DNA of 63,776 nucleotides, filler included, from Folioceros fuciformis (lineage: Eukaryota): NCBI GenBank assembly GCA_049999805.1. It is 10 parts of 10 records of this genome, joined end to end, with 100 filler letters (N's around TTAATTAATTAA, not from the genome) between each part and the next. Parts side by side here need not be neighbours in the genome. Positions count along the whole stretch, not along the records: positions 10,277 to 23,055 come from JBNGIO010002619.1; 9 more parts are not named here. The stretch is one strand, 5' to 3'. The stretch's first letter is position 1; the number at the start of each line of letters is the position of its first letter. Of the stretch, positions 6,794 through 59,551 are shown in pieces. Below the pieces are notes generated by a model, which had not been told where the DNA came from, did no database searches, and was given only the letters and a program-made list of their open reading frames with translations. The position numbers were made by a program, and so were the translations under genes.

Positions 6794-9442
6794 TTTCTTT
6801 TAGTTTGTTGAGAGATGGAGAAAGAGAGAGACTACGCTGTGGTACTGTGGTAAGGAATTTAAGGAGATGGAGCGTGAGGCTGCAGAGCAGTGCTTGGGAA
6901 GAACTTTGCGAAGAAGAAAGGGTGAGGGAAGACGTAGCCATTACGGGCAAGGGCAAGGAGCGCGCAGGGTGTTCGGGAGTTTCTAGGGCGCGAAGCAAGA
7001 AACCTAAAGGTCGTGTAGGGGCAGCAACTGTGCCCAGGGTCACAAAAGCTCAGCTTTTGCGACAGCTTGAGGAGCAAAAGGCGGAGTTGGAGATGCTCAA
7101 ATATGGCCTAAGCCCTAGGTTGGAGAGGCTTAGGGATGCAGTGACAAACGTGTGCAGGCCGCCTGTTTTGCCTTCGGTGACAAGTAATCCAGTGATAGCA
7201 ACGAGGTTGGGACAAGCAAAGGGTGGCGAGTCGGCACATCGTGAGCAGGGAGAAGGGGCGCTGGGCGATTGCGGCGAAGTTTTGTTGAAGGAAGGGTCAC
7301 CAGCGATGTGTGAGCAAGAGAGCGATGAGGAATTTGCAAGAAAGGCTTCGGCTGCAGTTCAGGGGGTTGAAGGAGTTGAAGCAGCACCAAGAAACGGGAA
7401 GGAGATAGGGCATGAGTCTAGAGAGGGGAGCGAGTCACAGAAGAGTGACGCGCCAGTAGCTCGCGAGACAGGAGATGAAGATGAGGAAGCTTTGTGGTAG
7501 AGCTATCGGCAAGAAAAGAAGACACATCTAGAAGAGGCGTGCTGTTGAAGGAAGGGAGTTGTGCAAAGAAAGACCTTTCGACGGCACCAGCAGTGAGTCA
7601 GGACGCCGCGTTGCCCAAGGAAAACCTTGTGGAGGTGCTGACAATGGAAGAGTAGGGCGCACCACCGAGGGACTCCGTGGCAGTTGCAGCAGTTGAAGCG
7701 GGAAGCGAGTTCTTGGAGAAAGTGTCGTCAGCGACGCCGGCGACTGAGAAAGGTGGCAAGTCACCAGTAGACGATCCTGTAGCAATGCACGCGGTGGAAG
7801 GAGGTTGGAGCCGCCAACGGAATTTACGCGTTCGGTAGTTGCACTTGCAGCGCCAGACACAGGGTGTGTGCGAGAGGGGGTGGCTTCGACAGCCCGGCCA
7901 AGGCCGAGATGAAAACGGTTGCTAGAATTTAGTTCTTCGTCTCAGGAGGTGAGCAGCGCCAGTAGGAAGCAGAAAGGGGAGGAGCAAAAAACAGTTACAA
8001 AACCGTCGAGGCCTAGAAGGATTAGGCAAGGTGCAGGACCAGGGCAGGAGGCGGGCCAATCGACATGGGAGAAAGAAGGAGTGCAAGACGCGGACAGTGG
8101 GGCACAGGAAGGATTTTGTGGTGGTGATCAAAACCCGCTGCCACCTCAGTGGAATTTATTGAAGACTCACACATTTTCCAGGGAGGAGCTGCGGAGGCTG
8201 CGACAAGAAACAGAGCGAGAGGTGGGGGAACTCTCGGCAGAGATTGTTGAACGAACAGCGGAAAGAGTCAGACTTGCAGTGTTGCTGAAGGACTTGCAAG
8301 CAAGAGAAGTGGAGAAAAGACGTCAACTCGAGGAAATTGTCTCCATAGAGTTACTGTCGGAAGGCGGGGCTACTTCTATCTTGAGTACCCTCAAAGGTAG
8401 GCAACTGGATGTTGCCTACGAGGTTATTACGAGGCAGTACCATCAACTCAAGAGGAGCGAGTCACCACAAGTGAAGAGTGGAGTGGGGAACAAGCGCAAG
8501 AGTTCGGAGGGGCCTAGACGAGTCGAGGACTATCATGAGTGTGACCCACCTAGGAGGAGCTCAAGCTACCAAGCTGGGAGAGGAAGAGTATACCGAAGGG
8601 CTATCATGAGTGTGACCCACCTAGGAGGAGCTCAAGCTACCAAGCTGGGAGAGGAAGAGTATACCGAAGGGGCTACACCTGATGGAAGGTTGGTGAGGGT
8701 GCGGTGACTGGGGACCTTCTTGTGAGAAGGTCCAAAAGACTTAAGCTAGAGAAGTTTGCTTCAGAAGCTACAGCGGAGAATGTTAGTGTGAAATTAATTG
8801 GTAGTAGCAGTGAGGGAGGTTCTGCGGCATAGAGGCAGTTTAGTAGTAAGACAGGGTTAAAGTTTTGCATGCGTGTACAAGTTTTTATCTTTGGAAATGA
8901 TAAACGGAACTTGCCATTTGGCTGTGTAGAGATAGCTGGTGAGTCTTTGTTGTTGTAAGAATGACGAAAGTTGTGTAGGAGGAACTTAACTAGGTGAGAG
9001 GAGTGAACTAAAGAAGAGCAGTTTGGAGAAATCAGAAGAGGAAAGGAGTTGGATGAGCAAATTTCGAAGGAGTATTGAGAGCTTTGTAAGAAGGAAGAAG
9101 AGCAAAGGGAAAGAAGACAGCAAAGTTTGCGACGCCTCATAATAGGGTGTTCACAGCCAAGTAGTTGGAGCCAGCTTCAAGCATTCTGTGATGATTTGAT
9201 AGTGCTTGAGCGACACTTTTCAGATGTGAAAAGTTTAGTGACGTGCTTAGAGAGAAAAGAGGGAGAAGTGAACTTAGTGTGGAACGCTACCAGGCGTCCA
9301 GTTTTAGAGCTAGTGTATTCCACACTGTATCCATGCTGGTTTGGATATAAACCAGTGTAAGACTTGATTAGTTGTAAAAGTTATTAGACTTTGGCGTGAC
9401 AATTTTTATTTCAACTGGTGCTTAACTTTTCAACATGAGAAG
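6794..9442 (+). mobile_element. Degenerate, probably transposon-derived ORF region (charged, coiled-coil-like), family unassigned
   Basis: Broken ORFs 6805-7500 and 7919-8707 are E/R/K-rich with no introns or recognisable domain, and lie between retroelement LTRs. Confidence 0.4.
8530..8671. repeat. Perfect 71-bp tandem duplication
   Basis: ctatcatgagtgtgacc...ataccgaaggg occurs at 8530-8600 and 8601-8671. Confidence 0.92.
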
Positions 9443-9717
9443 CGTAGGGTTCATAAAGCCCAATGTGCTTAGACTAATGCATTTAGTCTAAGATTAGTAT
9501 CTAGATAAGTACCATTGGTTTATATTAGCTTAAGCTAATCTGTAGGAAGCTTCTTGCGCAGCTTTCTGTGCACGTCTTGTGAAGCTTCCTAGAGAGCTCT
9601 TCTAAAGGGTATAAATACCCTCTTGAGCTCCCTTGCTATAGAGACTCTGTGTGAGAGTGTGACCTCTCCTTTATCCTTCTCTTTGCCTCTCCTCCTCTCC
9701 TCCTTCACCATGTAGCT
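9443..9717 (+). repeat. Copia-family LTR, opposite orientation to 6464-6793, interrupted by a family A insertion
   Basis: cgtagggttcataaagccc...caccatgtagct matches the reverse complement of ~6480-6793. Confidence 0.88.
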
Positions 9718-10176
9718 TGTGAACCTCCAAAGTTTGGGGTAGTGGTTTGTTTTGGTTGAAAAAGGGTTAATAGTGGTATGGTATGGTTTGGTTTTCTTTT
9801 TCTACCTATTTTTCCAAATTTTCCTTTATTTTTTGGTCATTTTTTCTATTTTTCCTTGTGCTAATTAGGTTAATAGACCAGTAAATAGTTGTTTTGGTTA
9901 TTAGAGTGGGTATAGGTTTGGTCGCAGACCCGGGAAGGTTTAGGTCCAGTACCAAACCATAGGGTCGGGAAAGGTTGAGTCTAGGTCTGGTGATTAGTTT
10001 AATATTAATTAAAGATATATAATATTAAATAATTAAGTAATAATAGAATAATATAAAATATAAAATAATAAGAGGAACCTAGGAATGGGAATATGTGGGG
10101 TATGGTATGTCAGAGTCTAACGTCAGGCTGGCTAGCCTAAACGGCTATGGAGGCTGTGCCCTAGCTAGGGCTAGAG
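9718..10176 (+). mobile_element. 5' terminus of a family A element (TGTGAACCTCCAAAG...)
   Basis: The same terminus and AT-rich body occur at 62811(+) and 45854(-). It starts with TG exactly where the copia LTR is interrupted. Confidence 0.8.
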
Positions 10177-10276
10177 NNNNNNNNNNNNNNNNNNNNNNNN
10201 NNNNNNNNNNNNNNNNNNNNTTAATTAATTAANNNNNNNNNNNNNNNNNNNNNNNNNNNNNNNNNNNNNNNNNNNN
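10177..10276. other. Assembly linker (N44-TTAATTAATTAA-N44)
   Basis: Identical artificial linkers also at 23056-23155, 26559-26658, 30835-30934, 45294-45393, 49414-49513, 57852-57951, 61407-61506 and 62667-62766. Confidence 0.97.
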
Positions 10277-13200
10277 CGGCTAATAACATTTTCAGTTTTG
10301 TTTGGTCTTGGTTTGGTAGGTTAGATGAGTGGCGATAATAAGGGGTAGTATTATAAAGAAGTTACCTTCTTTGGGATGGCTACCTATAGGGAGGTAAGCC
10401 CATGTACGGAGGATATCTATGTGGGAGGTAGTACCTAAATAAGAAATATAGTTGGGAAGGGCAAGCTACTTACAGAGAAGGGGACACCTGTGTAGGGTAT
10501 CTATTAAGGGCAGTTACTACATATAGAAGTATACCTATGACAAGAGGGTATTTAAAGGGGTCCCTGCCTAAGGTGTCCCATCAACGAAGGGTGCTCACCT
10601 CCATGCAGGGAGGAACTACATCTACCTACATAGCGGGGAATAAGGAAGTAGTTGTGCGACAAGACACCTACGCCGGGGACCTACTTGTTGTGACCAAGCG
10701 GACTCAAAGCGAGAGAAAGGGCTTTGCTGTGGTGAGAGTCATAGGGAGGAACGGTGCAGGGGACGTGAAATCAGCTGGACAGAAGCTGGGAGCAGTTGCC
10801 TATGGAGGTAGGGGTATAAACTTGCGTAAAGGAGGGCAATCGACATTCTTGGGGTTTTGTTCCATCAACTATGGCGCGGACCTCCAACAATACTCAGGTG
10901 GGTTCCAGCAGTAGGGGACGACCCACAAGGGCAGCCAGCTCTCCCCGAACTAATGTTCCGTCCTTTTCCTGCTTTGGGGGCCAACTGAACTCAAGGGATT
11001 TGATAGACCTACGGACTTGGGCATGTGACGCAAACGTCCAGCTTGACTCGATATATGGCAAACACTGGTCGTATGTTCATGAAGGCTTGGTGAAGGAGTG
11101 TTATACCAACCTATAGCAATCGAAGGAGGAGTTGGAAGCCCTACCTGAACGAAATGTGAGGACTGACCCTCGGTGTTGGATTGTCCGGAGCATCCAACAG
11201 GTGTATGGTAGGTCGGAAGAGGAGAGCGATGGTATTGGGATCCTGGATAAAACCATAGATGGGCGGAGGTCACCCAGCACGACCCTACCATCTGGGGCAC
11301 TAGAATTGCTGTTGGGAGGGGAGCTAGCAAGAACCAAGTACGGGTGCAGGACTGAGAGGGTCAAGGAGCTCAAATGGCGGTTGTTCACTAAGGTGGTTCT
11401 TGGATTGGTGAACTATCAACGCACCTTATATTTCAGCAATGCCTCCACTTCCTTTGGAGAGTGACTCAAGGAGCAAAGCCAGATTGGGGGCTAATTATGT
11501 ATGAGGCGTATACCTACTACAGGGAGAAGTTGCTCAAGCCAAACAGTAGGGAGGGGGGGAGTGCACGACCCTGCTACCTCTCGACTTACTTGGTGCACTT
11601 ATGGAAGACAGAAGGGTTGTTAACACAAGAGGAGTTGAAGGAGGCGGAACAACCTTTTGTAGTTGTCCTGTTGCAGGGGGAGGCTTTTATTTCCGGTGGA
11701 GTGTCGACCCCTCTTATGGATGAGGAGTCCCCACTTGATTTCGAATCAGCCATGGCAGCCTATGATGAGTCTGATGAAGATGACACCCCGTTGATACGGA
11801 GACCCAGGGAGCAGCAAAGGGACCGAAGGCTACCATCAGCCACCCCCCCCCCCCCCCGCAGCCCTAGATTCCACCACAACTGAGATGGAGACAGTGGGGG
11901 ATCCTGGACCAAGCCAGCCAATAGTTGAAGTAGGGTACCAAGTAGGGGATTTGGCAATAACACCAGTAGTGCAAGCACAAAGTGGAGCACCAGATTTGGG
12001 GAGAAGGAGCCCAATGAATTGGGAGGTAGCCTGGGGAGCACACGCCACAAGCCAAGGTAACGACACTTTGTTGGGAGTGTGGAGCAACATCATTCGGTGT
12101 GGCAAACAACTACAAAACATCAATTGGGGAGAGGCCCGTGCAATGATTGCAGCCCTACTACAGGAGGACATAAGTCGGGATGCAAACCAGGCACAACTAG
12201 AATCCAAAGTGCAGGAATTGGAAAAGGAGCGAGAACAGCATCTCCTCAAGGATGGTGAGCAAAGGCAAGGATTGGAGAAGTTGACCCAGCAGGTGACCAC
12301 ATTGCAGACCTCCCAACAAGGTTTATCCCATGAGATCATTGCATGTCGAAGGGACCTCACCCAGTTTGAGGAAACTAGGAAGGTGGTGGAGGAACAGCTA
12401 CGGGAATAAGTCTACCTTGCAAAGGATTTACAAGGCAAGCTAGATGAGTTGGAGGCACATAATGCTAAAGCGAACCAATAACTCCAGCAACGCCTTAAAG
12501 CAAGGCAACGAGAGCGAGTGGAGAGGGAACAATTGACCATCCAATTAGAAGACCTTCGGCAGGAGAAAGCACAACAAGAAGCTGAGCACCACACCAAGAT
12601 TCACAAGATGCTGGTGGTTCGAGCTTGTAGGTTTTGTGCAGACTATGCCTACTTGACGGGGTGCATGACCAAGTTTCATGCAACTCATCAAGAAAACCTT
12701 GACCTACTGTTGAAGGTAGGGGCAATGGAGGCTGAACGGGATATCTACAAGAGTAGATGCGAGGATGGGGATTGGGTTGTTCACATGGATACCATAGATC
12801 TAGCTCAACAGAATCGCAACCTCCACCTACACCAACGTCTACTCGCTCATCACAAGGAACTGGTAGCATTGGCAAGGCAAAGGTACCTTGGGCCACATGA
12901 TGACGACCGTGAGGCCCTGGAGACAGTGCCCCTACCAACAGACTTTCAAGAGGACAGCAGTATGGACCTGGAGAGCACGCAATGGGAACCTAAGGAACTG
13001 CTATGGGCTAGGAAGAGCACGCAACAAGGGATACCTACTCCTGTAGGGAACCTACCTATGAGAGGAGGGGAAGGAATGGTAGGGACCCTACCTACGGAGG
13101 CAGCAACAGGTACCATACTTACGGAGGAAACATTCCCACCCTAGGTAGAGAAGGAGCCTCAAGTTGAGGAACAAGGGGATCCCTCCCCTACCAAACTTGT

Positions 13201-14350
13201 AGGTGGTGGTGAAGGGATAGCCCAAGAGATCCACACAGAAGAAGGTACGGTGGAAGCTCGTGGATCCAAAAGAAGACGAATCGCAATAATGGAGGGGGGC
13301 CCAGTGGCTCAGCCTTCAGACTCTATCCCACTTCAGGAGCCATCCTAGCCATACCTTTTTGAAAAGGGGGTCAACGAATCTTTTATGGCGGTACCGACAG
13401 TCCTAATCTTCATCGGCACGTACTACCTTAGCAACTATTGGTAGGTCTTAGCCTCTTGGTAGGTGTGCGTAGTTAAAGCTGGCCGCGGCTAGTGGTAGGT
13501 AGGAAGCCGTCTGCCATCCTATATAAGTAGAACGAAGAACTTGAGCCGGAGGCCCCCGTTCTTTGATTGTAAGTGTTTCGTGACGAATAGACAACCAATT
13601 TTTGTAAGCCTACGTGGACATCCTGGCGGAAGGGGGAGCTACGAGTGCTCTTTCTGTTGCCGATCGTTAGGGTTCTTGTGATGTCTGGTTGGGAGTCTTG
13701 AACGTAGGGAAACGCGGAGTTGGATCGTGTAGAAGGTGTTGTGAGGAGACTTGTGGGGAAAGGTGCTGGGTGTAGGTAGTTGGAAGTTGGTAGGGGGAGG
13801 TAATAAGGCCCTTCCAAGTGAAGGAATGGTGCCTTCCTACTGACTGGACGTGTTGAAGGTACGCGGGAAAGGTTGAATGTCGTAGGGGAACGATAAACAG
13901 AGTTGGAGGGAGCGGGGTAGGCTCGGAGGAAAACTTGTTGGTCGTTGGGCGTAGGAGACGAGTAGCTAGATTGTGGGTAGAGGAAGGTGTTGTAGGGAGC
14001 CTTGTGAGGAAAAGATATTGAGTGTAGGGAGGTAGAAATCGGTAGGGGAAGTATTGGGGTCCTTCCAAGTAAAAGAATGGTGCCTAACTACTGACGGGAC
14101 GTGTTGCAGGATTGGTAGGAACGTGATTGGAAGGCAGAAATCCGTAGGGGAGGTACTGGAGCCCTTCCAAGTGAAGGAATGGTGCCTACCTATTGATGGG
14201 ACGTGTGGCCAGATTGGTAGGTACATGGTTGGGAGAGTTGACTAGTGTAGGAGAGCGATTCCGTGGAAGCCTACAATGACCGTGGGATTGATGTGGCCAC
14301 AATACATGTGAGCAGGTGCCTGGTAGGGATACCATACCCACTTGCCCACA
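10277..14350 (+). mobile_element. Family A element body with a disrupted ~800-codon ORF (10871-~13348; unnamed domain plus coiled-coil-like region)
   Basis: TATAAA at 10815 and ATG at 10871. Motifs VRTDPRCWIVRSIQQVYG, QGAKPDWGLIMY and PCYLSTYLVHLW, then Q/E-rich helical ORFs. A second copy lies at 57952-59551 and the 3' part is repeated at 23156-24105. Confidence 0.75.
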
Positions 14351-16450
14351 AACCTCTAGACGATCATTGGGCGAACGAACTGATTGTAAGGAGGATCCGT
14401 TCAAGATCCAGTACCTAACATCATACAGAAGGCAGGGTGTAACTGTCCCGGAGGGTTGTAGGCATGCCAAGGCCGCCGAGCATAAGATTTTACGCTGGCA
14501 TACGCCAGCCGATATGCCCCACTCCCCTCCCTCCCTTTCGGCACTCATCCTAAGAGTCGTTCTGACGCTCCGTTCTATGCCGTCCTCCATTGCTTCCACT
14601 CCGTCTTCCTATGACCTTCCTTCCTTTCTTGGCTCTCATCCACTGCGATGATTCCACCTACCCATGCCCTGTCGTGATTTTGTCAGCACTCTCCTCCTTC
14701 CTTTTTCCTGATTTGCGAACTCTTCTTCCCCATGGCTCTAGGGTAATTCCTTGAAGCAGGCAATGTATGGAAGTTCAACAAGGTGCATGTGCAAACCCAA
14801 CCCTATCCCAACTTCGCGCCCTGGATAGCGGAGGACGGGGACCCAATGGAGCAGTGGGAGTTGGGAATTTTCCGGTTTCCCTGGGAATCCATTTAACGGC
14901 CATCCTCCGAGAATTTGCCTGGGCTTTGTGGCACTAAGCTTGGGGCAAGCCGAAGTCCTCCAAGGTTCGTGACAATCCCACCTTGTGGACCATCCAAATG
15001 ATGTAAGAAGTCTACAACCGGCTGGCAGAGGAATGTAGAGGACTCTACCTCAATTCGTAGTGCAACAAGGAGCTGGTGAAGGAGGCAACGGCAGCTCTCC
15101 TCACAACGAACTCCACCAAGACTACCAACATGTGGTTGATTCACAATATTGAAGACTTGAGGATCAGAAGAGTGACTATGCTCATTGTCAACTAGTTGCT
15201 GGTCACCAAAACGAACCATGTAGCAGACAAAGTCTTGCTGCTACTCAATGGCTTGGCATAGGGGACCCCGGTGGACTAGGAAAAGGTGATAGCGCATTGG
15301 ATACAATCCGATGTTAGAAAGCTCAGGCATGAGATATAGTTCGATGTTAGAAAATCATGTAAGAGATACAATCCAATGTTAGAAAGCTCAGGCATGAGAT
15401 ATAGTTCGATGTTAGAAACTCATGCAAGAGATACAATCCAATGTTAGAAAGCTCAAGTAGGAGATACAATCCGATGCTAGAAAGCTCAGGCAGGAGATAC
15501 AATCGGATGTTAGAAATCTCAGGCAGGAGATACAATCCGATGTTAGAAAGCTCAAGTAGGAGAGGCCGCCCGCTTCAGGGTTTTCACCTTTTCTATTCCA
15601 CTATAAGGCTCTCACAGATTTAGAGAAGGTAGCACTTTCTCGGCAACCTCCTGCCCTGCCCTCCTCTTTTGCGGCTACAACACTGGCTCCGTGAAAGAAG
15701 GTTGTAGCGCCTCCTCTCAGCCGAAGGTGCTAACCATAGCAATGGTACCTTTGCCAATGTCGAATACTTTGGAGGATAGTTGCGGAGTCGTGTCGGAGTC
15801 ACCACCTATGGCCTTTTCCCCAACTCCCAACAAGCGCACCTCCAAAGATGCGCCACTGGCATAGGTCCTTCCACCGAAGCAGCAGAACATTCGAGCAATG
15901 TCCACGGTGGGCAAGTGGATCTCACTACAAAGTGCCCCACCACCCCCTAGCCTGAAGCCGGAGCTCATGGCCTAATCTCTCTTTACCTTCATGCTTCCGC
16001 AAACACCTCCCCCCACTCCCAAGATAGGCCGCTGCTTTAGGCTTCCTCCGCCCAGCTCAAGACACCTCGTTAGTGTTTTGACGGGGCACAACTAGGCTCG
16101 GAGGATTCAAAATTTCTACCATAGAAACAAAGAAGGACCACGACGCTCAAGGGATGCACCCGATGACCTTTGGCTACAATGATCAAGTCCGGCAAACCTC
16201 CAATGGTAAGTCCACGGCATCGAGTCCTAGGAGCTCTGTCGTAGGTCTGTTTTGGAACTGGCCTCCATCTCCCCCTCTCCTCTCTTCCTTGGCCACTATC
16301 TCAAGACAGGACCCGGAGTGGGTATAGGCTTTGCTCCTCGATCTTGTCACCCCCGGTCCGTCTTTTTCTCCCCTCTTGTACCACCGCTCGCCTCTGCTGT
16401 GTCAGCGCAGCACCCCATTACCTCCTCCCATCGAAAGTCCATTATCTAGG
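14351..16450 (+). mobile_element. Family B element, copy 1 (degenerate ORF from ATG ~14732)
   Basis: Colinear with ~17020-18330. Translates to ...PPCG/WTIQMM*EVYNRLAEECRGLYLNS...GTPVD*. Confidence 0.65.
15300..15561. repeat. Minisatellite: 8 units of 32-33 bp (gatacaatccgatgttagaaagctcaggcagga)
   Basis: The units are directly visible. The first four alternate between 33-bp and 32-bp variants. Confidence 0.92.
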
Positions 16451-16519
16451 TTCCATACTCACCATGCCTTCCCTCTGACTACTGCCTCCATCTCTCGCTA
16501 CTCCGCCGTGTTCAAGGCC

Positions 16520-16755: not shown

Positions 16756-17019
16756 ATTGAATGCAAGTGTGACCGCCTAGCTTCTCGAGATCTTTCGTTG
16801 TCAAGACTCCTTGGAGGCCAAGTTTGTACAAGGGGATGTACCAAACAATGAGTAGCCTCATTTGTCGCCATTTGCATGGTTTCCCGCTGTTAGGTCCGAA
16901 AATAATCACTAGAGTAGCACATCAGTGAACCACCAAACTCGTCTTGGGAGTGAGTGCAAACTTTTTTTTTTTAAATGATTATTTTTGGCAACCCCGGGTT
17001 CTTTGGAGTAGAAGGCATG

Positions 17020-20000
17020 ATGGACTGCCCGCTGAACAGACTGACAGTAAGGATGCTCCATTCAAAGTTCTAGTACCCGGACATCATGTAGAAGATGGGG
17101 CGTAACCGTCCCGGACGATTGCAGTGTACCAGGGCCGTCGAGGGTAAACCTTTACGCTAACATACGCCATTCGATACGCCCCACTCCACTTCCTCTCCCT
17201 CTCGCCACTCCTTCTGAGAGTTAGTCCGCCTTTCCCACTCCGCTCCGTTCACCTTTCGCTTCACTCTGTTTTCTAGCGCCCTACGACCTTCTTGCCCTTT
17301 GCTCATTCCTGGTATTCCTCCTTGTCTCCTCTCATACCACAGTGTTGCACCATCCTTTGCTATCTCCCTCCTTCGCTTTCAGCTCTCAAGACACCTTCGT
17401 CATGGCACCAGGACAGTTCCTCAAAGTTGGCAGCACCTTGAGACTCAACGTGGAGCAAATCCAAACGCGCTCCTATCTGAATTTTGCATCTTGGATAGCG
17501 GTCGCACGAGACCTCATAAAGCGGTGGGAGCTAGGAATTTTTCAAATTCCCTGGGCCATCAACTCAATGGTGATTGTCTAGGAATTTGCCTAGACCGTGC
17601 TGCAGTGTGCTCGGCAAAGATCAAAGACAATCCCACGTTGTGGACTGTCCACATGATGTGGGAGGTGTATCGGCATCTGGCGGAGGAATGCGGAGGGCTT
17701 TACCTCAACTCCCAGGGCAAAAAGGAGTCAATGAAGGAGGTAGCAGCCGCGCTCTTATCGGTGGATTTCGTCAAGACCACCAATGGGTGGTTAATCCATG
17801 ACATCGTGGACCTCAGGATCAGGGGCGTGGCGTGCTTGATTGTCAATTGGCTCCTGGTGACAAAAACTGACCATGGGGCAAACTGAGTGCTACTACTTCT
17901 CTATGGGCTGGCACAAGGCACTCTAGTGGACTGGGATTTGGGACCATTATAAGGTCCTAACGGATTTAGAGAAGGCATTGCTTTCTCGGTTGCCATCCGC
18001 CCTGGCCCCCATCCTCCGTTGCTCCTCCACTGGCCCCCAAGAAGAAGACTTCAGCGCCAACTATTTAGCCCAAGGCCATCCCTATTGCCCCGGTGCCTCT
18101 TCCAGTTTCGAATCCCTTTGAGGATAGCTGTGCAGCAGCACTGGAGTCGCCCTCCATGGTCTCTCCTCCCAACTTCCCGACCAGCTAGCCTCCAAAGTGG
18201 AAAGTAGGAGCACTACCGGCCCAAGCACCTCCGCTCAAGTGGCGGAATATCAGGGCCATGTCTACGGTGGGAAGACAGCTCCTACTGTAGAGTGCCCTAC
18301 CGCCCACTAGTCCGGAGTTAGAGGACTTCTTGGCTCCAGTACCAAGGAAAGGGGAGGCACCAAGGACTAGGGAAGAGGCGGACCGTATGGAACAGGTTCG
18401 GCTGGCTGAGCAACTGGACTTCAATGAGTGGCATACGATTGGGTTGTCTAGAGTCAAACGGCCATCTTCACCTCATGGGAGGAAGAAGGGGTGGGGGCCC
18501 CGTTCTCCTAGTTCGCCACCCACCGGAATGATCCCACCTCTGGCATCCAAACCAGCTCCGAATTCGGCCCAGGAGGAAGTCGATAATCGCAGGGCATTGC
18601 CACGGTCCATAGTCTTGGAAGACATCATCGACGGGTGAGTTATAGACCCAAATGCCATGAAGAAGGCTATATGAACATCCTTCGGAAGGGTGTATTTGCC
18701 TCCCAACTACCGATTCTACATCAAAGCTACGGCAGAAGGAGTCACATAGGTAGCCCAAGGAATCATCACCAGCTTGGTGGAGGGCCTAGCGTCGTCCTTC
18801 GGACAGGTAGCAGCTCGAGAGGGTGAAAACGTCGCCCTCCGAAGAAGGATGATTGAGTTAGCAACTCAATTGTCCGCCCTAAACTAACAACCGGACATAA
18901 CTTCAAACTTCAAGGAGGAGTCCTGCAAATTCTAAGAGGAATGGGACAAGTGCCAAGACAAGCATGGAGGAAGCGAGAGACGAACGCTTAGGAGGCCTGT
19001 CGGCAACACATAGAGGACTGGGATCCCTACCGTAAGGAGCAAAACCGAGTCCTTGAAGAAGAGAAAGATGCCTCCTGTGAGCTGACCGAGGCAGTTCGGC
19101 AGGTGGAAGAGCTGTGAGGCAGACTCCAGGCGGTGCAACCCGAAGAAAAAGAAGCCCAACAAGAGGTGTGGACCTTGAAGTCCGATCTCGCACGAACTCG
19201 TGAGACCATGCGAAGTCACGCGCAAGTATGGGAGGAAGAGCTCAAGAACCTAGTGGAGCGTGTCAATGGTTTCCGGGCCAAGGGAGAGGAGCCGTAGTCT
19301 CAATTGGCAGACTTTGAGACTTAAGAAGATCAACGTGAGGTGGCCTTGCTCCGAGCCCAAACGAAGGCTGTGTCTAACCTATGACCAAGAAAGTCAGCCA
19401 CTATCACCTCCACGGCCCTTGAAGAGCTCCGGAGGTACGTCGCCATCGCCGCCACATAGCACGCCGACCTACTGGAGGCTAGGTGGCGACCGAAGTATGA
19501 GATGGTCCGAAGGATGGTAGTGGACCTCATCCAGCAACTAGAAGACAACCACGAGTTCTTCCATGGCGAAGTCATTCAGGTCTTGACCAAGACCGCAGAG
19601 GTCGTAGCAACTTCACCAACCCCTGCACCTCCTACCGGCAAATGCACGGCACCAAGTAGTCTGGAGCCCCAGGCTACTGGACCCATTTCCCTAGACCTCC
19701 AACTACTGGTCCAGTCCCTGTAAGCTGGCTCTACCGACCTACCTACCGCAATCGACGGAGCGGAATCTTCCCCCGGACCCATGTCACCCGTAGGAATACC
19801 TCTAGCATCATCCTCCCTCGGCCCTACGCCACCCACACTGCCACCTTCCCATTAAAGGCACAGTGATAGTAGTTAGCTGGCTCGGCTTCGGAGTCCCGTT
19901 TTGCTTGCTATTCTTCCCTCCAATCTCCTTCTCTGCCCCTCGTGCCTCTCCACACCCACAGGCGGATTGTTGTACTGCCTCCCTTTCCCCCTACTCCATT

Positions 20001-46587: not shown

Positions 46588-49367
46588 CCCCGCGAGTTCA
46601 CACCATCACACCCGCTCACTTCCGCTCGTTTCCCACAACTCTCGACCCACCGATGTCAAGGCTTACACACACAACAGTCACCAAGAAACCACCCCAGTTG
46701 CCGCACACACACACACTCACTTAGAACCCACGCTCACCAAATTCGCTCCACTATCACGCAACTCTTCAGTCCAAACACCACAGCCCTCCCCTCACTCACA
46801 CACTTCAGTCAAGAAACTCAGGCCGGTTCACCACCGCGACCTGCTCACATCCACACCCCAGTCCCACAACAAACTCAGGCTGGAACTCCGCTCACCTTTT
46901 CCACAGCTCGTTAGACCCACATACAATCAAACACGCCTTCAAGGCTCCAACTCACACACCCACAACGCACAACCACTCCAGCTCTTCGGTCTCTCAGGTT
47001 CTACTATACTCCAATCACCTCGCCATCGCCTACGTCCGCAACTCCGCTTTCACACACTCAGAGCTCGTAACATTAGCTACTCAGGCCCGCTCTCACATTT
47101 CACACACACATCGACCCTCTTTCTTCCTCTTGCTCACAATTCCCTCTGGTTCACTGTTCACTTACTTGACTCTCAACAACCTGAGCCTCTCGACTCTTCG
47201 TCCTCCAACTCGCCCCTCCAGGGCCTTCTCCTCTTCTCCGTATTTGGGGGAATGGTGGAATCGCCAAAGGCTAAGGGAAGGGTTTGCCACTTCCACTCCG
47301 AACTCGCGGATTTGGCCTCTTTCGCTCTCACCACCCTACGCGACAGTAACGGGGATAGCTAGGGAGCGCGGCTCCCACTCGGCGAGGCTCCTCCTCTTGA
47401 TTCATTCCCGAAACCTCCGTCATGGAGCAGCCACCACCTGCACACCACACCCTCAGAACACTACGTGCGCTCGCCTGCCTGGACCTCCCTGTCCAGCTGT
47501 GGCCATTGCTAGGCTTCCGCAAGGTTGGAATGTCGGGCTAGTTTTTGCTGAATTTTTTGAGGCACCAAACCGGCCTCTTGTACATGCTAGTGGAGGGTTC
47601 TTTCCACCATAAAGTCTGTCAGGGGTCAGTCAGCGCTCTTAATTTCTGAGTGGCTGAGGTCTAAGCAAAAGCAACCTAAAAAAAACTATCCTAGGATGCA
47701 ATTACTGTCGCCTCTCTCCTCGCCGCGGTCACCTTCCTCCTGGCCGTCGCGCTCCTCCCCTCACTAGCCCGCCTCTGGCCCTCCTACCTCGCTGTTGGTT
47801 GGGCAGATCCTCCCAGAGGAACTCCACCTCGTTGCTGCTGGTCCTGGCTGGCGGTGGCGTAGGTGGGTCCCATCGAAGGGGACTCCTCTCCTCCCTTCGT
47901 CACCGATTGCTGAGGATGAGGACGGGTTCCCACTCAACCCAGTGCTGCGCCTCCTCCTCTGTCAGCTCCTCCAGGATTGCCTCGGAATAGCAGTGAGGTA
48001 GTCCCCACACCCGCTAGCGGTAGTAGTAGGACCCCCTACGGGTCCTCAGTTGCAGGCCGTAGCCCCGCGTCCCTCCTAAGCCCATACGGACATATAAAAA
48101 CACTTTCAGAACTCGGGCTCTTTCCACATAGAGGCCTGGCACATAAGTGGCCTCCTTCTCATACTGCAGCACAACCTGACCCTCTGTTGCAAAGGAAGTG
48201 CTTACCCCTTCCTCCTTTGGGCTACCTCGGGCTCCCTGCCCTCTGCTCTCCTGGGGTACTGGAGGATCCTTTGCTCCCCCAGTTGCTGCTTCCCCTTGCT
48301 CAACCCTCCTGGCGCGAGTAGCTCTTCCAGAATGTTGGGTCGCAGGCGCCTCCACTACCACCTCTTTGGCTATCGAGGTCGTGGCTTCCGCTACCGACGT
48401 TGTCTCTCCTCTACCGGTAGCCTCTTTGACTACCTCCGTTGTCGCTTGGCTACCTCATCGGGTTTTCCCCTTCACCCGCTCTTTGGCCTCGTCCCGTTCT
48501 CGCTTGTACCTATCGGCCAGTTTCTGGGCCTGCTCCACCGAGACCGCTTCCTTCTCCTGTGCCATGGCTACCTCTTGTTGCATCTCCAAGTTAGTTCCAT
48601 GGGCTTCCCTCACCTGAGGTAGGAGCGACTCCTGCTGCTCCTTTAACGCCTGAACTTCTGCTCTCGCCTGGAGGGCCTCTTCCTCCACTTGTGCCTTGGT
48701 TGTGCTCAGGGACTGCTGCTTTTCCTCCAGGAGTCGCTGCGCCATTTCGGACTCCGCCAACTTTCTCCTGGCCTCAACCTCTTTTTCGCGGGCTTCTGCC
48801 TCCTTACCCCGGGCATTGCCGAGGTCAGTCCAAGCAAGTCCACCTCCCACGACTCCCCCACCGGGACCATTCCCCTGTTCGTGATCTGCCTCCCCAGCAA
48901 CGTTTGTAACCTCTCCAGGTCTCCTGCCTGCAGCTTGTCCACCATAGGGATCCTCCTAAAAATTTCTTCCCATCCTGGGAAGGGTTCCTGTTTCGGAGCG
49001 TGCCCTAATTTGCTCATCACCTCAGGTGGGCCCACTTCTATATTTGGCACTTACTCCTGAGGTGCCTCTGGCTCCTCCTCGGCATGTCCCTGCTCTGTTG
49101 GCTCCTAAACAATCTCCTGCTCCTGTTCAATCTGTTCCGGGGCTGCTTCCTCTGGCGCTAACCCGCTTCCCCTCCTGGTGACCTACCCACCAATTTGCCT
49201 CCTTTTGGTAGGAGTCCTCTTCCCTGTCCCCGCCTTCCTCTTTTGCTTGGTGGAGTTTCCTCCTCTGAGCTGTCCTCGCCTCCCGATTCCCAGCTGTTGG
49301 AGTCGGCTTCCTTTGGCTTTGCGGGCTTCCACTTAACCTCCCTTAGTGGCTTTGTGGAGACCACATG
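46588..49367 (-). mobile_element. Family C element, partial copy
   Basis: Colinear with 49700-52010 and 60500-61400. Shared peptides include VKWKPA.P..ADS.SW.SG, WEEIFR.IP and GQVVLQYE.EA.YVPGLYVE. Confidence 0.75.
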
Positions 49368-49513: not shown

Positions 49514-52500
49514 GCGGCTTCCACCATGCAGCCATCTCGTGTTTCTGCCACCACTCTTCACCTCTCACATACACACTCCAGTCGCGTGGTCTTGTCATGA
49601 CGACCGTTCAACATCTCGCACTCACACTCGCTGCCTCTCTTGATCTCTCTTCATCGCTTGTTCACATTTTCTCGACTCCATACTTAGTCCTGCCTTTCCG
49701 ACCTTCTCCTATGGAATTAAGGAATGTTGAAACACCAGGGCCAAGGGAAGGGATACCCACTTCCACTCCGAACTCGCGGATTCGGCCCCGACGTCCTCAC
49801 CACTCCACGTGATCGCCCCTAGGATAGCTGGGGAGCTCGTCTCCCACTCGGCGAGGTTCCACCTCCCGATTCGTTCCTTGGCTCAATCGCGGAGCGTCCA
49901 CCACCTGCACCCACACCCCCAGGTTGCTACGTGCACGCGCTTGCTTGGACCTCCTGTCCGGCAACGGCCATCGCTAGACTCCTGCAAGGTTGGGTGGTTG
50001 GGCTGATTTTTGCTAATTTCCCAGGCCTCAAACTGGCCTCTTATACACGGTGGTGGCGGTCTTTCCGCTATAAAGTCTGTCAAGTGTCAGTCGGCGCTCT
50101 TAAATTCCAAGCGGCTCAAGTCCAAGTAAAAGCATTCCAAAAAAAACGCTATCCTAGCCTGCAATTACTATCTCCACTCTCCACGCCGCTAGCGCGCGTC
50201 TCCTCTCACTGGTCCCCCTCTTGCTCTTCTACCCCTCCGCTGATCGAGCAGATCTTCCCACAGGATCTCTAAGTCACTACTACTGCTGGACCTTTCTGGC
50301 GGCGGCACAGGTGTGCCCCGCCGCTGAGAACCACTGTTCCTCCTCCTCCTCTGGTTATTGAGGATGGCAACAGGCTCCCGTTCTACCCATGGTTGGGCCT
50401 CTTCTTCCATCAACTCCTCCAGAACTGCCTCTGCGTAGCAATGGGGCAGGCCTGTCATCCACCAACTGTAGCGGTAGAGTCCCTTGCGGGTCCTCAGATG
50501 CAAGCCGTAGCTCCGCGTCCCTCCTGTGCCCATACGTACACTCAGAAACAGTTTAAGAACTCTGGCCCCTTCCACATAAAGACCTGGCACATAGGAAGCC
50601 TCCTCCTCATACTGCAGAACAACGGGACCTTCTGTCATAAAGGAGGTGCTTACCCCTTTCTCCCTTGGGCTACCGTGGGCTGTTTATCCCCCATCTTTGT
50701 GGGGTACCTGAAGGTCCTTCAACCGTCTAGCTGTTGCTTCCTCCGGCTCTGTCCTTCTGGTGCGGATCAATCTCCTGGAGTGCCTAAGCTCAGGCGCCTT
50801 CGCTGTTTCTTCCTTGGTTCCCAGGGCTGGTCCCTCGATTACTCTGGGCTCAGTCGGGCTACCGGTAGCCCTGGCGACTACTCGGCTACTGGTAGTCCAC
50901 TCGATTACCGGTTCCCCTACTCGACTACCGGTAGCCTCTTCAGCTACCGGGGTCGCCGTTTAACTTGGGCGCCCAACCTTACCCTTCCCCTTCACTCTCT
51001 CTCTGGCTTCGTCTCTCTCCCGCTTGTACCTGTCAGCCAGCTTCTAGGCCTGTTCCACAGCTACTATCTCCAGCTCTTGCGCCTTGGCCATCTCTTGCTG
51101 TATCTCCAGGTTAGTCTCATGGGCCTCCCTCACCTGAGCTAGTAGGATCCCCTGTTGCTCCCTTAGCGCTTGGACCTTGGCCTTCGCCTGGCATGCCTCT
51201 TCCTCAGCCCGTGCCCTCTCTTTATCCAGGACTCGTTGTCTCTCCTCCAGCTGTTGCTGCGCCGCCTCCGATTCTGCCAGTAGCCTCCGGGCTTCAGCCT
51301 CCTGCTAGCATGCCTCTACTTCCTTCCCTCGGGCCTCGGCTTCCTGTTTCGCCTGCACACTCAGCCAGGTCAGTGCCCTAGCAGCCTGGTCCAGGAGATC
51401 TGCTTGGGCCTGTACCATCGCGGCAGTCAGCCCTGGCAGATCCACCTCCTGCGTTTTTCCAACAATCATTCCTCGCCATAATCTGCTTGCCCAGAAACTC
51501 CCTCAGCTTCTCCAGGTCTCCCACCTGCAGCCTATCCTTCTAAGGAATGCTCCTGAAGATTTCCTCCCATCCTAAAAAAGCTCCTTGCGCCGAAACGTGC
51601 CCTAATTCGCTCTCATGCATGGGAGGAATTAACTCGGCGACTAACGTCTGCTCTTGAGACCCCTCTTGCCCTACTTCATCCTGCCCCTGCTCTTCCAGTC
51701 CTTGATCCATAACCCCCTGATTAGCGAGCTCCTGTTCTACCTCCTGTTCTTGTAAAGCCTGCTCCTCTGTCTGACCTTCGGTTCGCTCCAGGGCTGTCTC
51801 CGGTGTCTGCGGCCTACTCCCTCCTCTCGTGCTCTGCCCGCTGACCCATCTCTTGGCAAGGGTGTTCCCCTGAGCTGCTGTCCTCTTCTTAGGCCTGACG
51901 GGAACCTCCCCCTCTGAGCTGTCCCCACTCCCCGACACCCAACTGCTAGAGTCAGCCTTCACTGGCTCAGCAGGCTTCCATTTTACATCCCTGATTGGCC
52001 TCCACATGTGCAGTGAAGCCAACACCTCCAGTTCCAACACCAAGTTAGCATAACTATAAATATGCACTAGAAACGGGGAAATCATCGAGGGCTGAGGAGA
52101 TGGCAACTTCTGCCTCTCCTCATCCATCCTGGCATACAGAATTTTTCCCCAATCAATCATGGTCCCCTTCACTACCTCATGCACAAACAAGAGCCTCTAG
52201 TCAGACAGATGTTTGTGAACCTGGAGAAAACTAAGAAACCACCTGGCCAGACCCATCAGCTGCGGGCTCGCCATGTCGCGAACCAACCATCTGTTAGCCT
52301 CCTTCTTCGTGCCTGGTTTGAGCAGTCCTTCAGCGTCTCCTGTACCCCCCCGTTTCCTCAGGGACTCCAGCACCAATCCTCCCTCTTCTCGCTAGTCACG
52401 GCCATACACCCTCCTCACTAGCTCCAAGTTCCACCCCTGCGGTCTGCCTCTGATCCCCTTCTCACGGACAGGTTCCCTCAACCTTTGGGTGCACTCCCTG

Positions 52501-53202
52501 ACCAACTGTGGCGCTGCGTTGTTCCACCTCTGGGTGATGAAACCCAGACCCAATTCATCCACCAGCCCTCCTGCTCTGACCCTCCAATGCTACATGTTGG
52601 GCCACAAGAGTAGGTCGATCCGGGGAACAAGAGGTTCCCCCTCCTGCTCGGGTACTCCAGGCAGCAGTTCAAGGCATGACCTCATCCTACCAATCTCCTC
52701 CTCGTGCTCCGGCTTCTGCAGTCCCTCCTCTCTCTCGTTGAGCACTCGCTGCTTGCCTCGGCCCGTCCTGTTGGGTCCTGTTCTGCTTCCCTTCCAGCCG
52801 CCTTTACGCTCCCGGGAACCTGCCCTTCACGTTTCGAAGACTAACTTAATTCCCCTCCATACGTCCCTTTAGGGTTTTTATACTGGCCGTTTTCTTCTCT
52901 CACTATTGCCAGTTAGACTACCACCAATCGTCCTTTTTGCGACGGTTGCCCCACTGGCCACCGTCACCCAGTCACCTCAACCCATCCTTTTTCCTAAATC
53001 CACAACTAGCTAGCCCCCTTCCCTACTCATTTCTATTCCTTATTTCCAAAAGGGGGGGGTATATATAACCTCCTAAATGCCCCCGAACCACCAAGGCCCA
53101 AGGACACCCTCACTCACTCACTTCTAGATCGTGGTCTTCGGTATCCCAAACACCCAAAGACCAAGGCCATTTTTGGGTATGAATACCCCCATCTTATTCA
53201 CA
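49514..53202 (-). mobile_element. Family C element with a disrupted ORF (~52832-50150; unnamed domain plus coiled-coil-like region)
   Basis: On the minus strand it starts TGTGAATAAG at 53202, with TATAAAA at ~52882. Motifs IRGRPQGWNLELVRRVYG, NRWLVRDM, KGTMIDWGKILY and SPFLVHIY. Confidence 0.75.
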
Positions 53203-57951: not shown

Positions 57952-59551
57952 TAATTATGTATAAGGCGTATACCTACCACAGGGAGAAGTTGCTCAAGTC
58001 GAACAGTAGGGAGGGGGGGAGTGCACGTCCCTGCTACCTCTCGACTTACTTGGTGCACTTATGGAAGACAGAAGGGTTGTTAACATAAGAGGAGTTGGAG
58101 GAGGTGGAACAGCCTTTTGTAGTTGTCCTGTTGTAGGGGGAGGCTTTTATTTTCGGTGGAGTGTCGACCCCTCTTACGGATGAGGAGTCCCCACTTGATT
58201 CCGAATCAGCCATGGCAGTCTATGATGAGTTTGATGAAGATGACACCCCGTTGATACGGAGTCCTAGGGAGCAGCAAAGGGACCGAAGGCTACCATCAGT
58301 CACCAACCCCGCAGCCCTAGATTCCACCCCAACTGAGATGGAGACAGTGAGGGATCCTGGACCAAGCCAGCCAATAGTTGAAGTAGGGTACTAGGGTTTA
58401 GGGTAAACCCTAAACCCGAGATGACACCAGTAGTGCAAGCACACAGTGGAGCACCAGATTTGGGGAGAAGGAGCCCAGTGAATTGGGAAGCAGCCCGAGG
58501 AGCACACGCCACAAGCCAAGGTAACGATACTTCGTTGGGAGTGTGGAGCAACATCATTCAGTGTGGCCAACAGCTACAACACATCAATTGGGGAGAGGCC
58601 CGTGCAATGATTGCAGCCCTACTACAGGAGGACATAAGTTGGGATGCAAACCAAACACGACTAGAATCCAAAGTGCAGGAATTCGAAAAGGAGCGAGAAC
58701 AGTATCTCCTGGAGGATGGTGAGCAAAGGCAAGGACTGGGGAAGTTGACGCAGCAGGTGACCATGTTGCAGACTCCCCAACAAGGTTTATCACATGAGAT
58801 CATTGCATGTTGAAGGGACCTCGTCCAGTTTGAGGAAACTAGGAAGGTGGTGGGGGAACAGCTACGAGAACAAGTCTACGTTGCAAAGGATTTACAAGGC
58901 AAGCTAGATGAGTTGGAGGCACAGAATGCTAAAGCGAACCAGGAACTCCAACAACGACTTGAAGCAGGGCAACGAGAGCGAGTGGAGAGGGAACAATTGA
59001 CCATCCAATTAGAAGACCTTTAGCAGGAGAAAGCACAACAAGAAGCTGAGCACCAGACCAAGATTCACAGGATGATGGTGGTTCGAGCTCGTAGGTTTCT
59101 TGCTGACTATGCCTACTTGACGGGGTGCATGACCAAGCTTCATGTAACTCATCAAGAAAACCTTGACCTACAGTTGAAGGTAGGGGCGATGTAGGCTGAA
59201 CGGGATATCTACAAGAGTAGATGCAAGGGTGGGGATTGGGTTGTTGACATGGATACCATAGATCTAGCTCAACAGAATCGCAACCTCCACCTACACCAAC
59301 GTCTACTCGCTCATCACAAGGAACTGGTAGCATTGGCAAGGCGAAGGTATCTTGGGCCACATGATGACGACCGTGAGGCCCTGGAGACAGTGCCCCTACC
59401 AACAGACTTTCAAGAGGACAGCAGTATGGACCTGAAGAGCTCGCAATGGGAACCTGAGGAGCTGCTATGGGCTAGGAAGAGCACGCAACAAGGGGTACCT
59501 ACTCCCGCAGGGAACCTACCTACGAGAGGAGGGGAAGGAATGGTAGGTACC
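57952..59551 (+). mobile_element. Family A element, second copy of the ORF region
   Basis: Colinear with 11492-13090 and interrupted at 59552 by family C. Confidence 0.85.

What the first reader, a model, noticed from the sequence alone, without database searches (positions are those of the whole stretch)
11132..11640. One unnamed protein domain shared by three nucleotide-divergent repeat families
Seen by manual alignment. A: VRTDPRCWIVRSIQQVYGRSEEESDGI...KYGCRTERV...QGAKPDWGLIMY...PCYLSTYLVHLW. B (~17620-17935): IKDNPTLWTVHMMWEVYRHLAEECGGL...TNGWLIHDI...QGTLVDW. C (~52460-52055, -): IRGRPQGWNLELVRRVYGRD.REEGGL...ANRWLVRDM...KGTMIDWGKILY...PSMISPFLVHIY. Motif order is the same, spacing is similar, and each is followed by a low-complexity linker and a long coiled-coil-like region. 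No RT, integrase or DDE motif is visible. Inference: an ancient TE-borne accessory protein kept under selection, for example for anti-silencing or chromatin targeting, by analogy with plant mobile domain and Transposase_28/32-type extra ORFs.
Basis: partly seen in the sequence, partly recalled or inferred. Interest (0 to 1): 0.7.

Follow-up and report, generated by a model that had tools for sequence, protein, structure and literature searches.

The report
Dead copies of VANC-like transposon protein
Three diverged repeat families in this plant-like DNA are broken copies of one large gene family absent from Pfam, whose helical domain most resembles the DNA-binding part of a plant transposon protein that blocks silencing.

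Summary
A (11042-11661), B (17620-17949) and C (52556-51993, minus strand) share one ~200-residue domain. Shuffle tests give z 5-21, and a profile built only from outside proteins finds all six window copies and nothing else. All copies are dead. Reads of the same organism show that four of A's lesions are absent from some or all other copies.

The domain belongs to a large family with no Pfam name: 419 proteins at E<=10, and 140 of 141 members have no Transposase_32 hit. Members share one build: helical domain, acidic disordered linker, long helices.

Best reading: a diverged branch of the PMD / VANC / Transposase_32 group of plant transposon accessory proteins. DNA binding and anti-silencing are inferred. 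The carrier element and the host species are unknown.

The parts
11042..11441 (+). Copy A, N-terminal two thirds of the domain. It sits in the frame of 11117 and has an in-frame TAG at 11114-11116.
   Evidence: translation; outside-only domain profile, iE 1.8e-8, profile 30-86; shuffle tests against B, B' and C.
11443..11661 (+). Copy A, C-terminal third of the domain (QGAKPDWG...YLSTYLVHLW), in a different frame. The break is at 11441, where part of the other copies in the organism's reads have 4 more letters.
   Evidence: iE 2.1e-11, profile 142-199. table 4: 267.5 of 636.8 and 484.9 of 1049 depth. I first placed the break at 11398, which was wrong.
11662..13144 (+). Copy A, acidic and proline-rich linker followed by the long-helix / C-terminal region. 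It has a frame change at a poly-C run (11846) and TAA stops at 12407 and 12479.
   Evidence: translation, stops; weak coiled-coil Pfam hits, E 0.003-0.05; other copies lack 7 letters at 11846 and read C at 12407 and G at 12479 in all laid depth; linker charge -6.
57952..59551 (+). Copy A', 92.5% identical to A 11492-13087. It is cut by the contig start, so only the last part of the domain is kept (57954-58121). After 59551 another repeat interrupts it.
   Evidence: iE 4.5e-5.
17402..17578 (+). Copy B, probable N-terminus (MAPGQF...ELGIFQIPW...) in another frame than the domain.
   Evidence: My reading against the family's N-terminal motif. Not tested statistically.
17620..17949 (+). Copy B, domain with an in-frame stop at 17884-17886. 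The stretch between 'VDW' and 'HY' (last helix region) is lost and the frame changes there.
   Evidence: B-C z 21; iE 5.6e-4.
17950..19720 (+). Copy B, proline-rich linker and helical region, broken into several frames.
   Evidence: weak match to profile positions 287-407 at 18830-19330, iE 0.027.
14373..15951 (+). Copy B', about 66% nucleotide identity to B. The domain at 14965-15294 has 4 in-frame stops. A 33-nt minisatellite (15300-15563) sits inside the domain, and the SPFLFHY motif follows it at about 15575-15600.
   Evidence: iE 6.7e-5.
51993..52556 (-). Copy C, whole domain in one frame with two in-frame TAG stops (52392-52394 and 52197-52199).
   Evidence: iE 1.9e-16. PF20167 E 0.0031, 17.9 bits, protein 13-171 against profile 3-168 of 177.
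49910..51992 (-). Copy C, acidic linker (net charge -13), helical region (51334-50972) and conserved C-terminal region (50890-50279).
   Evidence: dN/dS against C' 0.08-0.34.
47444..49352 (-). Copy C', linker, helices and C-terminal region only. The domain is lost at the contig end.
60551..61402 (-). Third fragment of the C-family C-terminal region, 77% identical to 49717-50448.

Best explanation
The three stretches, plus three more copies in the window, are pseudogenes of one multi-copy, probably mobile gene family of a plant-like eukaryote.

Intact members encode proteins of about 450-700 residues with four parts:
- a short basic N-terminus;
- a helical globular domain of about 200 residues;
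- an acidic disordered linker;
- about 160 residues of long helices, then a disordered tail.

The globular domain has no Pfam name. It is most likely a far-diverged branch of the fold group that holds the DNA-binding part of VANC21 (the anti-silencing factor of VANDAL21), the plant mobile domain (PMD; MAIN/MAIL), Transposase_32 and ATHILA ORF-1.

Inferred working: the domain binds DNA or chromatin, the long helices join several chains, and the protein helps the element that carries it by targeting or by countering silencing.

What is shown: homology of A, B and C; the family and its build; the fold match; the decay of the window copies. What is inferred: DNA binding, oligomer formation, the role, and carriage by a transposon.
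For: - Homology of A, B and C: shuffle tests z 5-21, and an outside-only profile finds all six copies.
- Size of the family: 19 representatives at E<=1e-3 (one of them spurious), 17 at E<=1e-3, and 419 at E<=10 with the best 120 all below 1e-54.
- Build: the AF2 domain model has pLDDT 89.2 and pTM 0.84. The full-length model shows the domain at 12-225, a disordered stretch at 227-296 and helices at 299-461. The linker has a median net charge of -9 and the domain +4.
- Links to Transposase_32 / ATHILA: 22 of the 30 nearest Atlas clusters carry PF20167 and 4 carry PF03078. A second subfamily member gives TM 0.61/0.56 over 185 residues to a PF20167 cluster. Copy C gives E 0.0031 along profile positions 3-168 of 177.
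- Past selection and present decay: dN/dS is 0.10 for B-B', 0.08-0.34 for C-C' and 0.69 for A-A'. Two stops of copy A are absent, and 7 extra letters at 11846 are lacking, in all laid depth of the organism's reads. The 4 letters missing at 11441 are present in 42-46% of the depth. 254 and 289 variant contigs were laid.
- Literature (passages read): VANC binds short DNA motifs of its own element (PMC5735166). VANC is structurally homologous to the PMD protein MAIN, and VANC and the Athila domain are predicted to join through coiled coils (PMC13547354). PF20167 sits in a sunflower Athila extra ORF (PMC11728184).
Against: - No sequence-level link to VANC21: the family profile does not find it among PDB sequences at E<=10.
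- Pfam membership fails. Only 1 of 141 members touches PF20167 (E 0.03). Of the window pieces only C does.
- The Atlas scores are leads: 0.91 for the first member, 0.85-0.86 for the second, and shared features are under 170.
- No transposase, RT or integrase and no terminal repeats were found around any copy, so carriage by a transposon is not shown.
- The domain's net charge is only mildly positive, and 0 or negative in A and B.
- dS is saturated (about 2) for the old pairs, so their dN/dS values are rough.
Confidence: 0.6

Rival explanations
1. It is a host multigene family and is not carried by any transposon. It would be a chromatin or transcription regulator like the genic PMD-B/C proteins, which has multiplied and left many pseudogenes.
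For: - No transposition enzyme and no terminal repeats lie next to any copy.
- Genic PMD families exist (PMC5418596, passages read).
- Many outside members lie on large contigs of up to 1.4 Mb.
Against: - There are six decayed copies on four of ten short contigs, nested among other repeats and next to a truncated copia.
- Hundreds of variant contigs were laid at high summed word depth in the organism's reads.
- 90%-identity clusters hold up to 68 member sequences on 1-5 kb contigs.
- A and A' are 92.5% identical over 1.6 kb up to an abrupt end.
Confidence: 0.2
2. It is a structural protein of a retroelement, in a Gag-like or Athila-ORF1-like particle or RNA-packaging role. The helical domain would be a capsid-type module and the long helices would drive assembly.
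For: - ATHILA ORF-1 clusters are among the nearest Atlas neighbours.
- Outside contigs of 3-5 kb hold little more than this one ORF, as in gag-only non-autonomous elements.
- Long helices would suit assembly.
Against: - There is no zinc knuckle and no Gag Pfam hit in any real member. The one zf-CCHC hit, P0007, is a repetitive spurious match.
- No capsid chain was listed by the full PDB fold search, which is only weak evidence.
- The copia elements in the window have their own Gag, Retrotran_gag_2.
Confidence: 0.12
3. The resemblance among A, B and C is chance or compositional.
For: tblastx found only one marginal A-C pair and no A-B or B-C pair.
Against: - Shuffle tests: 0-1 of 2000 shuffles reach the observed scores.
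- Outside-only profiles hit each copy co-linearly.
- The tree puts all of them in one starred group.
Confidence: 0.01

Closest known systems
[quoted passage not shown]
   Different: There is no detectable sequence similarity. No MULE transposase lies nearby. VANC is described as dicot-specific (PMC13547354). I could not map which VANC Pfam domain lies at 289-537. DNA binding is untested here.
Plant mobile domain (PMD, PF10536): MAIN/MAIL1/MAIL2 and the Gypsy-borne PMD-A
   Same: It is reported as a structural relative of VANC (PMC13547354; bioRxiv 10.1101/2024.09.27.615353, passages read). It is found both in transposons and as host genes, and is linked to chromatin and DNA-motif targeting.
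   Different: PF10536 did not appear in any Pfam output I saw (in one search only the first 25 of 60 families were listed). No PMD structure or sequence was available here for a direct comparison.
Transposase_32 (PF20167, 'putative plant transposon protein') and ATHILA ORF-1 (PF03078)
   Same: These are the nearest named neighbours by language-model features and by predicted structure. Copy C aligns along profile positions 3-168 of 177. PF20167 is found in an extra ORF of a sunflower Athila element and is said to be related to PF03078 (PMC11728184, passage read).
   Different: Scores are far below the curated cut-off: 17.9 and 14.6 bits against 45. 140 of 141 members give no PF20167 hit at E<=1. 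No LTR element surrounds the window copies.

Membership tests
Pfam PF20167 Transposase_32 | Whole-protein score at or above the curated cut-off (45 bits) | tested here: not met
   C read-through scores 17.9 bits, E 0.0031. P0012 scores 14.6 bits, E 0.03. 1 of 141 members hits at E<=1. The A and B pieces give no hit.
Pfam PF20167 Transposase_32 | Co-linear match along the whole profile, or a shared predicted fold | tested here: inconclusive
   C residues 13-171 match profile positions 3-168 of 177. The Atlas structure search gives TM 0.61/0.56 over 185 residues to a cluster in which 87% carry PF20167. 22 of 30 nearest clusters by features carry it. All of these are below the tools' own bars for naming a family.
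Pfam PF03078 ATHILA ORF-1 | Profile match | tested here: not met
   PF03078 appears in no Pfam output (and the first 25 of 60 families). It appears only as an Atlas neighbour: 4 of 30 clusters, score 0.86 and TM 0.46-0.53.
Plant mobile domain PF10536 | Profile match to the PMD model | tested here: inconclusive
   PMD is not listed. In one search only the first 25 of 60 families were shown, and PMD was not among them. No profile-profile tool against Pfam was available.
VANC / DUF1985 anti-silencing proteins | Fold of the DNA-bound VANC21 domain | tested here: inconclusive
VANC / DUF1985 anti-silencing proteins | Sequence kinship | tested here: not met
   The family profile against all PDB sequences does not list VANC21 at E<=10.
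VANC / DUF1985 anti-silencing proteins | Encoded in a MULE next to a MuDR-type transposase | tested here: not met
   0 of 92 further ORFs of 75 aa or more in the four carrier contigs hit any Pfam family at 1e-3. The contigs are short, so an element larger than a contig is not excluded.
VANC / DUF1985 anti-silencing proteins | Sequence-specific DNA binding and loss of methylation at its own element | not testable with these tools
   This needs EMSA or DAP-seq and methylome assays.
Extra ORF (aORF) of an LTR retrotransposon | Lies between the LTRs of an element with gag-pol | tested here: inconclusive
   C lies just downstream, on the same strand, of a copia pol that breaks off at about 53365-53400. 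No LTR pair was found. The second copia copy (3120-5591) has no such ORF after it.
Retroelement Gag | Gag Pfam domains or a zinc knuckle | tested here: not met
   None in the window copies or in real family members.

The most novel reading that the evidence does not exclude
This family is an old, non-Pfam branch that ties two sets together. One set is Transposase_32 / ATHILA ORF-1, the extra ORFs of retrotransposons. The other is PMD / DUF1985-VANC, DNA-motif-binding regulators of silencing. Together they would form one superfamily of multimeric, sequence-specific DNA-binding proteins that transposons use against silencing. If the host is not a flowering plant, the family would also place that invention before the angiosperms, where PMD has been described so far.
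Probability: 0.25. Interest if true: 0.7.

Novelty: new variant of a known kind. Interest (0 to 1): 0.45.

Why it matters
How transposons fight silencing is known in molecular detail for very few proteins, and VANC is the main plant example. The origin of the plant mobile domain is stated to be open (PMC5418596, Discussion passage read).

The family found here is large, has many intact members outside this window, gives a confident model, and has the same domain-plus-long-helix build. That provides concrete proteins on which to test two questions. One is whether DNA binding and anti-silencing are general to this fold. The other is whether the Transposase_32 / ATHILA extra ORFs belong to the same group.

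The window copies themselves are dead and have no function of their own.

Tried and rejected
- Word-indexed protein search with copy C (residues 40-205): 324 candidates, none at E<=0.01.
- The listing of cluster members: the database was switched off, so names and accessions of family members could not be had.
- The search for related loci: the alignment had no conserved stretch. With P0026, 2 of 91 stretches passed, both matching only in the helical region (28% and 50% identity), so they gave no useful context.
- The genome search: no genome is held for the window or for L001. I therefore could not obtain true Transposase_32, PMD or VANC sequences for a profile-profile comparison.
- Sequencing runs: no RNA holder is listed.
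- Complex prediction on two copies of the helical region 297-463 of P0019: no verdict (0.53 against a control at 0.42).
- Foldseek against BFVD viral models: 0 matches at E<=0.001.
- Rfam and tRNA scans of the window: 0 and 0, so no hint of the taxon.
- Earlier findings of the scan: nothing.
- The VANC21 structure paper (doi 10.1266/ggs.25-00096) is not held.
- My first placing of A's frame break at 11398 ('SWIGEL' aligned to 'NWLLVT') was wrong. One search puts it at 11441. The A C-part rows in alignments A2 and A5 therefore begin with about 15 out-of-frame residues.
- My guess that B keeps 'PSALAPIL' as the PFLVH motif is rejected (z 1.8, 132 of 2000). B has lost that stretch.
- C as a 3' extra ORF of the neighbouring copia: not favoured. 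By my reading, the copia pol breaks off before its usual end, and the other copia copy lacks such an ORF.
- Paper search for PMD in bryophytes, ferns or gymnosperms: none of the 12 papers listed holds the phrase 'plant mobile domain'. This one search does not show that nothing is in print.
Full report
**What the window is.** The 63,776 bases are not one locus. Nine spacers of the form N44-TTAATTAATTAA-N44 join ten short contigs: 1-10176, 10277-23055, 23156-26558, 26659-30834, 30935-45293, 45394-49413, 49514-57851, 57952-61406, 61507-62666 and 62767-63776. The content is plant-like. There are copia gag, integrase and Pol_BBD domains, an RVT_1 ORF, split Nramp exons and a CAP domain. No genome is held for the window, and the organism is only given as a code.

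**The observation.**
- Copy C is one reading frame (52589-51543, minus strand) with two in-frame TAG stops.
- Copy B is one frame with a stop at 17884-17886.
- Copy A is in two frames.
- tblastn and tblastx within the window found three further copies: A' (57952-59551, 92.5% nucleotide identity to A), B' (14373-15951) and C' (49352-47444). Between families they found only a marginal A-C match.
- Read through the stops with X, the families align well. Against 2000 shuffles each: B-C scores 125 (z 21); the A C-part against C 81 (z 12.7); the A N-part against B' 57 (z 8), against C 54 (z 5.8) and against B 46 (z 5.1). The A C-part does not match B or B' (z 1.9 and -0.7). This fits the anatomy. 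B has lost the stretch between 'VDW' and 'HY'. B' has a 33-nt minisatellite (15300-15563) there, followed by SPFLFHY.

The domain also starts about 40 residues earlier than stated, at a W..LV[KR]EC motif in A and C.

**A large family outside the window.**
- A profile of the window copies, searched against 1.84 billion representatives, gave 19 proteins at E<=1e-3, the best at 1.1e-7. One of them (P0007) is a spurious zinc-knuckle repeat.
- A word-indexed search with P0013 residues 25-215 gave 17 proteins at E<=1e-3.
- A profile of 22 rows gave 419 proteins at E<=10. The 120 listed are all below 1e-54, and most lie on ENA contigs of up to 1.4 Mb.
- None of the listed proteins has a precomputed Pfam domain.
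- A profile built from 141 outside proteins alone finds every window copy and no other place in the six-frame window: C 1.9e-16, A C-part 9e-7, A' 4.5e-5, B' 6.7e-5, B 5.6e-4, A N-part 8e-4. A domain-only outside profile gives 2.1e-11 and 1.8e-8 for the two halves of A.
- In a tree of 21 rows the family splits into two starred groups (97/95). A, B, B' and C lie together on one side of a branch (89/78, and 93/89 with the other half of A), inside the group of P0005, P0006, P0008, P0010 and P0020. Paths between them are 2.6-3.9 changes per site. One A row was left out of each of the two builds, because the two halves of A do not overlap.

**Build of the protein.** With 141 sequences as alignment, AlphaFold2 models the 217-residue member P0014 at mean pLDDT 89.2 and pTM 0.84, as a mostly helical domain. 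The 526-residue member P0019 shows four parts:
- the domain at 12-225, with pLDDT about 90;
- a disordered stretch at 227-296;
- long helices at 299-461, with block pLDDT 58-85, mostly 73-85;
- a disordered tail.

Across 30 full-length rows the median net charge is +4 for the domain, -9 for the linker and -2 for the helices. The window copies have the same order. Their helical parts give weak Pfam coiled-coil hits and weak matches to the outside profile.

**Is the domain known?** By Pfam's rules it is not.
- The nine window pieces gave no family match over the domain at E<=1; the only hits were weak coiled-coil-type families on the two helical pieces and one stray hit (Thi4, E 0.21) on the B piece.
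- The 18 real first hits gave none at 0.01.
- Of 141 members scanned, only one (P0012, E 0.03) touches PF20167 Transposase_32.
- The one stronger signal is copy C read through its stops: PF20167, E 0.0031, 17.9 bits against a cut-off of 45, with residues 13-171 on profile positions 3-168 of 177.

Three other lines point the same way.
1. In the ESM Atlas, 22 of the 30 nearest clusters to P0014 carry PF20167 (score 0.91) and 4 carry PF03078 ATHILA.
2. For a member of the other subgroup (P0010, residues 75-290), the nearest named clusters by features are ATHILA (0.86) and PF20167 (0.85). By predicted structure the first row is a PF20167 cluster, at TM 0.61/0.56 over 185 residues.

**What the literature adds (passages read, not whole papers).**
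- VANC proteins of VANDAL transposons bind short DNA motifs in their own non-coding regions and remove silencing. They carry the DUF1985 and DUF287 domains (PMC5735166).
- VANC is structurally homologous to the PMD protein MAIN. [quoted passage not shown]
- PMD-C proteins sit at specific DNA motifs and oppose Polycomb silencing, and their domain resembles the DUF1985 domain of VANC (bioRxiv 10.1101/2024.09.27.615353).
- PMD is described as ubiquitous in angiosperms, with PMD-A on Gypsy elements, and its ancestry is called open (PMC5418596; also PMC7156037).
- PF20167 was found in an extra ORF of a sunflower Athila element and is called related to PF03078 (PMC11728184).

None of the passages I read joins Transposase_32 / ATHILA with PMD / VANC. 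My data suggest such a link but do not prove it.

**State of the copies, and selection.** Every window copy is broken.
- A has a TAG at 11114, a frame break at 11441, a frame change in a poly-C run at 11846, and TAA stops at 12407 and 12479.
- B has a frame change before the domain (my reading), one stop and an internal loss.
- B' has four stops and the minisatellite.
- C has two TAG stops.
- A' and C' are cut by contig ends.

Contigs of two DNA runs of one sample, with the same coded organism label, were laid on A at 85% likeness or more. That gave 254 and 289 short variant contigs. In them:
- 4 extra letters at 11441 are present in 267.5 of 636.8 and 484.9 of 1049 depth;
- 7 letters at 11846 are absent in all laid depth (10.7 of 10.7 and 246.7 of 246.7);
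- C replaces T at 12407, and G replaces T at 12479, in all laid depth.

These four lesions are therefore absent from some or all other copies, and the family is multi-copy and varied. Depth here is not a copy number.

dN/dS (NG86) is 0.69 for the young pair A-A' (466 codons, dS 0.079) and 0.10 for the B-B' domain. For C-C' it is 0.08, 0.20 and 0.34 in the three parts, with dS near or above 1-2 and so saturated. This fits long purifying selection in the active lineages and neutral decay after insertion.

**Is it transposon-borne?** This is not shown.
- In the four carrier contigs up to 53400, 0 of 92 further ORFs of 75 aa or more hit Pfam at 1e-3.
- No long terminal or inverted repeats bound the copies.
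- C follows a copia pol on the same strand. By my reading the pol breaks off at about 53365-53400. This looks like nesting rather than one element.
- Multi-copy state, nesting among repeats and abrupt ends of homology favour mobility. A multiplied host gene family remains a real rival.

**Mechanism, and how likely.**
- That A, B and C are homologous pseudogenes of this family: about 0.97.
- That the family has the domain-linker-helices build: about 0.95.
- That the domain belongs to the VANC / PMD / Transposase_32 / ATHILA fold group: about 0.7.
- That it binds DNA or chromatin as a multimer to help its element (targeting or anti-silencing): about 0.35-0.4, by inference from VANC and PMD-C only.

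The test of self-association of the helical region gave no verdict.

**Verdict.** This is a real, significant shared domain. It is unnamed in Pfam, but it is most likely a diverged variant of a known kind of plant transposon accessory protein, not a new fold. The window copies are dead. The interest lies in the outside family and in the possible bridge between Transposase_32 / ATHILA and PMD / VANC.

Noticed in passing
window 10177-10276 and eight further places (23056, 26559, 30835, 45294, 49414, 57852, 61407, 62667): Nine spacers of the form N44-TTAATTAATTAA-N44 join ten separate short contigs. Distances and neighbourhoods across these points mean nothing.
   Followed up: yes
window 15300-15563: A 33-nt minisatellite (about 8 copies, also read as a 65-nt period) sits inside the domain of copy B', between the 'VDW' and 'SPFLFHY' motifs. 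Copy B has a loss at the same place.
   Followed up: partly
window 13428-14350, 14030-14232 and 23156-24105: Another repeat family (89% identical between the two contigs) with 102-nt tandem units lies directly upstream of copy B'. VANC targets are tandem short motifs (PMC5735166), but no link was tested here.
   Followed up: no
window 3120-5591 and 54725-57211 (minus strand): Two copies of one copia element, 90.7% identical, with Retrotran_gag_2, Pol_BBD, gag_pre-integrs and rve domains. By my reading, the copy next to C breaks off in its RNase H region at about 53365-53400.
   Followed up: partly
window 27375-29096 (minus strand): A 574-aa open frame with RVT_1 (E 1.3e-22), probably a non-LTR retroelement. 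The neighbouring 357-aa frame at 29443-30513 has no Pfam hit.
   Followed up: no
window 31507-33580 (plus strand): An Nramp metal transporter gene split into exons. The Pfam Nramp N- and C-parts lie in separate frames. It is an ordinary host gene.
   Followed up: no
window 37276-39261 (minus strand): An uninterrupted 662-aa frame whose only Pfam hit is a U11-48K-like CHHC zinc finger (E 9.5e-5, residues 259-283). It is a long intact ORF of unclear kind.
   Followed up: no
window 41339-42553 (minus strand): A 405-aa frame ending in a CAP (cysteine-rich secretory protein) domain (E 5.5e-12).
   Followed up: no
window 59552-59666 and 46475-46587: A short repeat (83% identical, inverted) starts exactly where A' stops matching A. 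It is probably the end of an element inserted into A'.
   Followed up: no
window 11846-11852: The run of C at about 11843-11857 is 7 letters longer here than in all contigs laid from the organism's reads. This could be a real length change or an assembly error of a homopolymer.
   Followed up: partly
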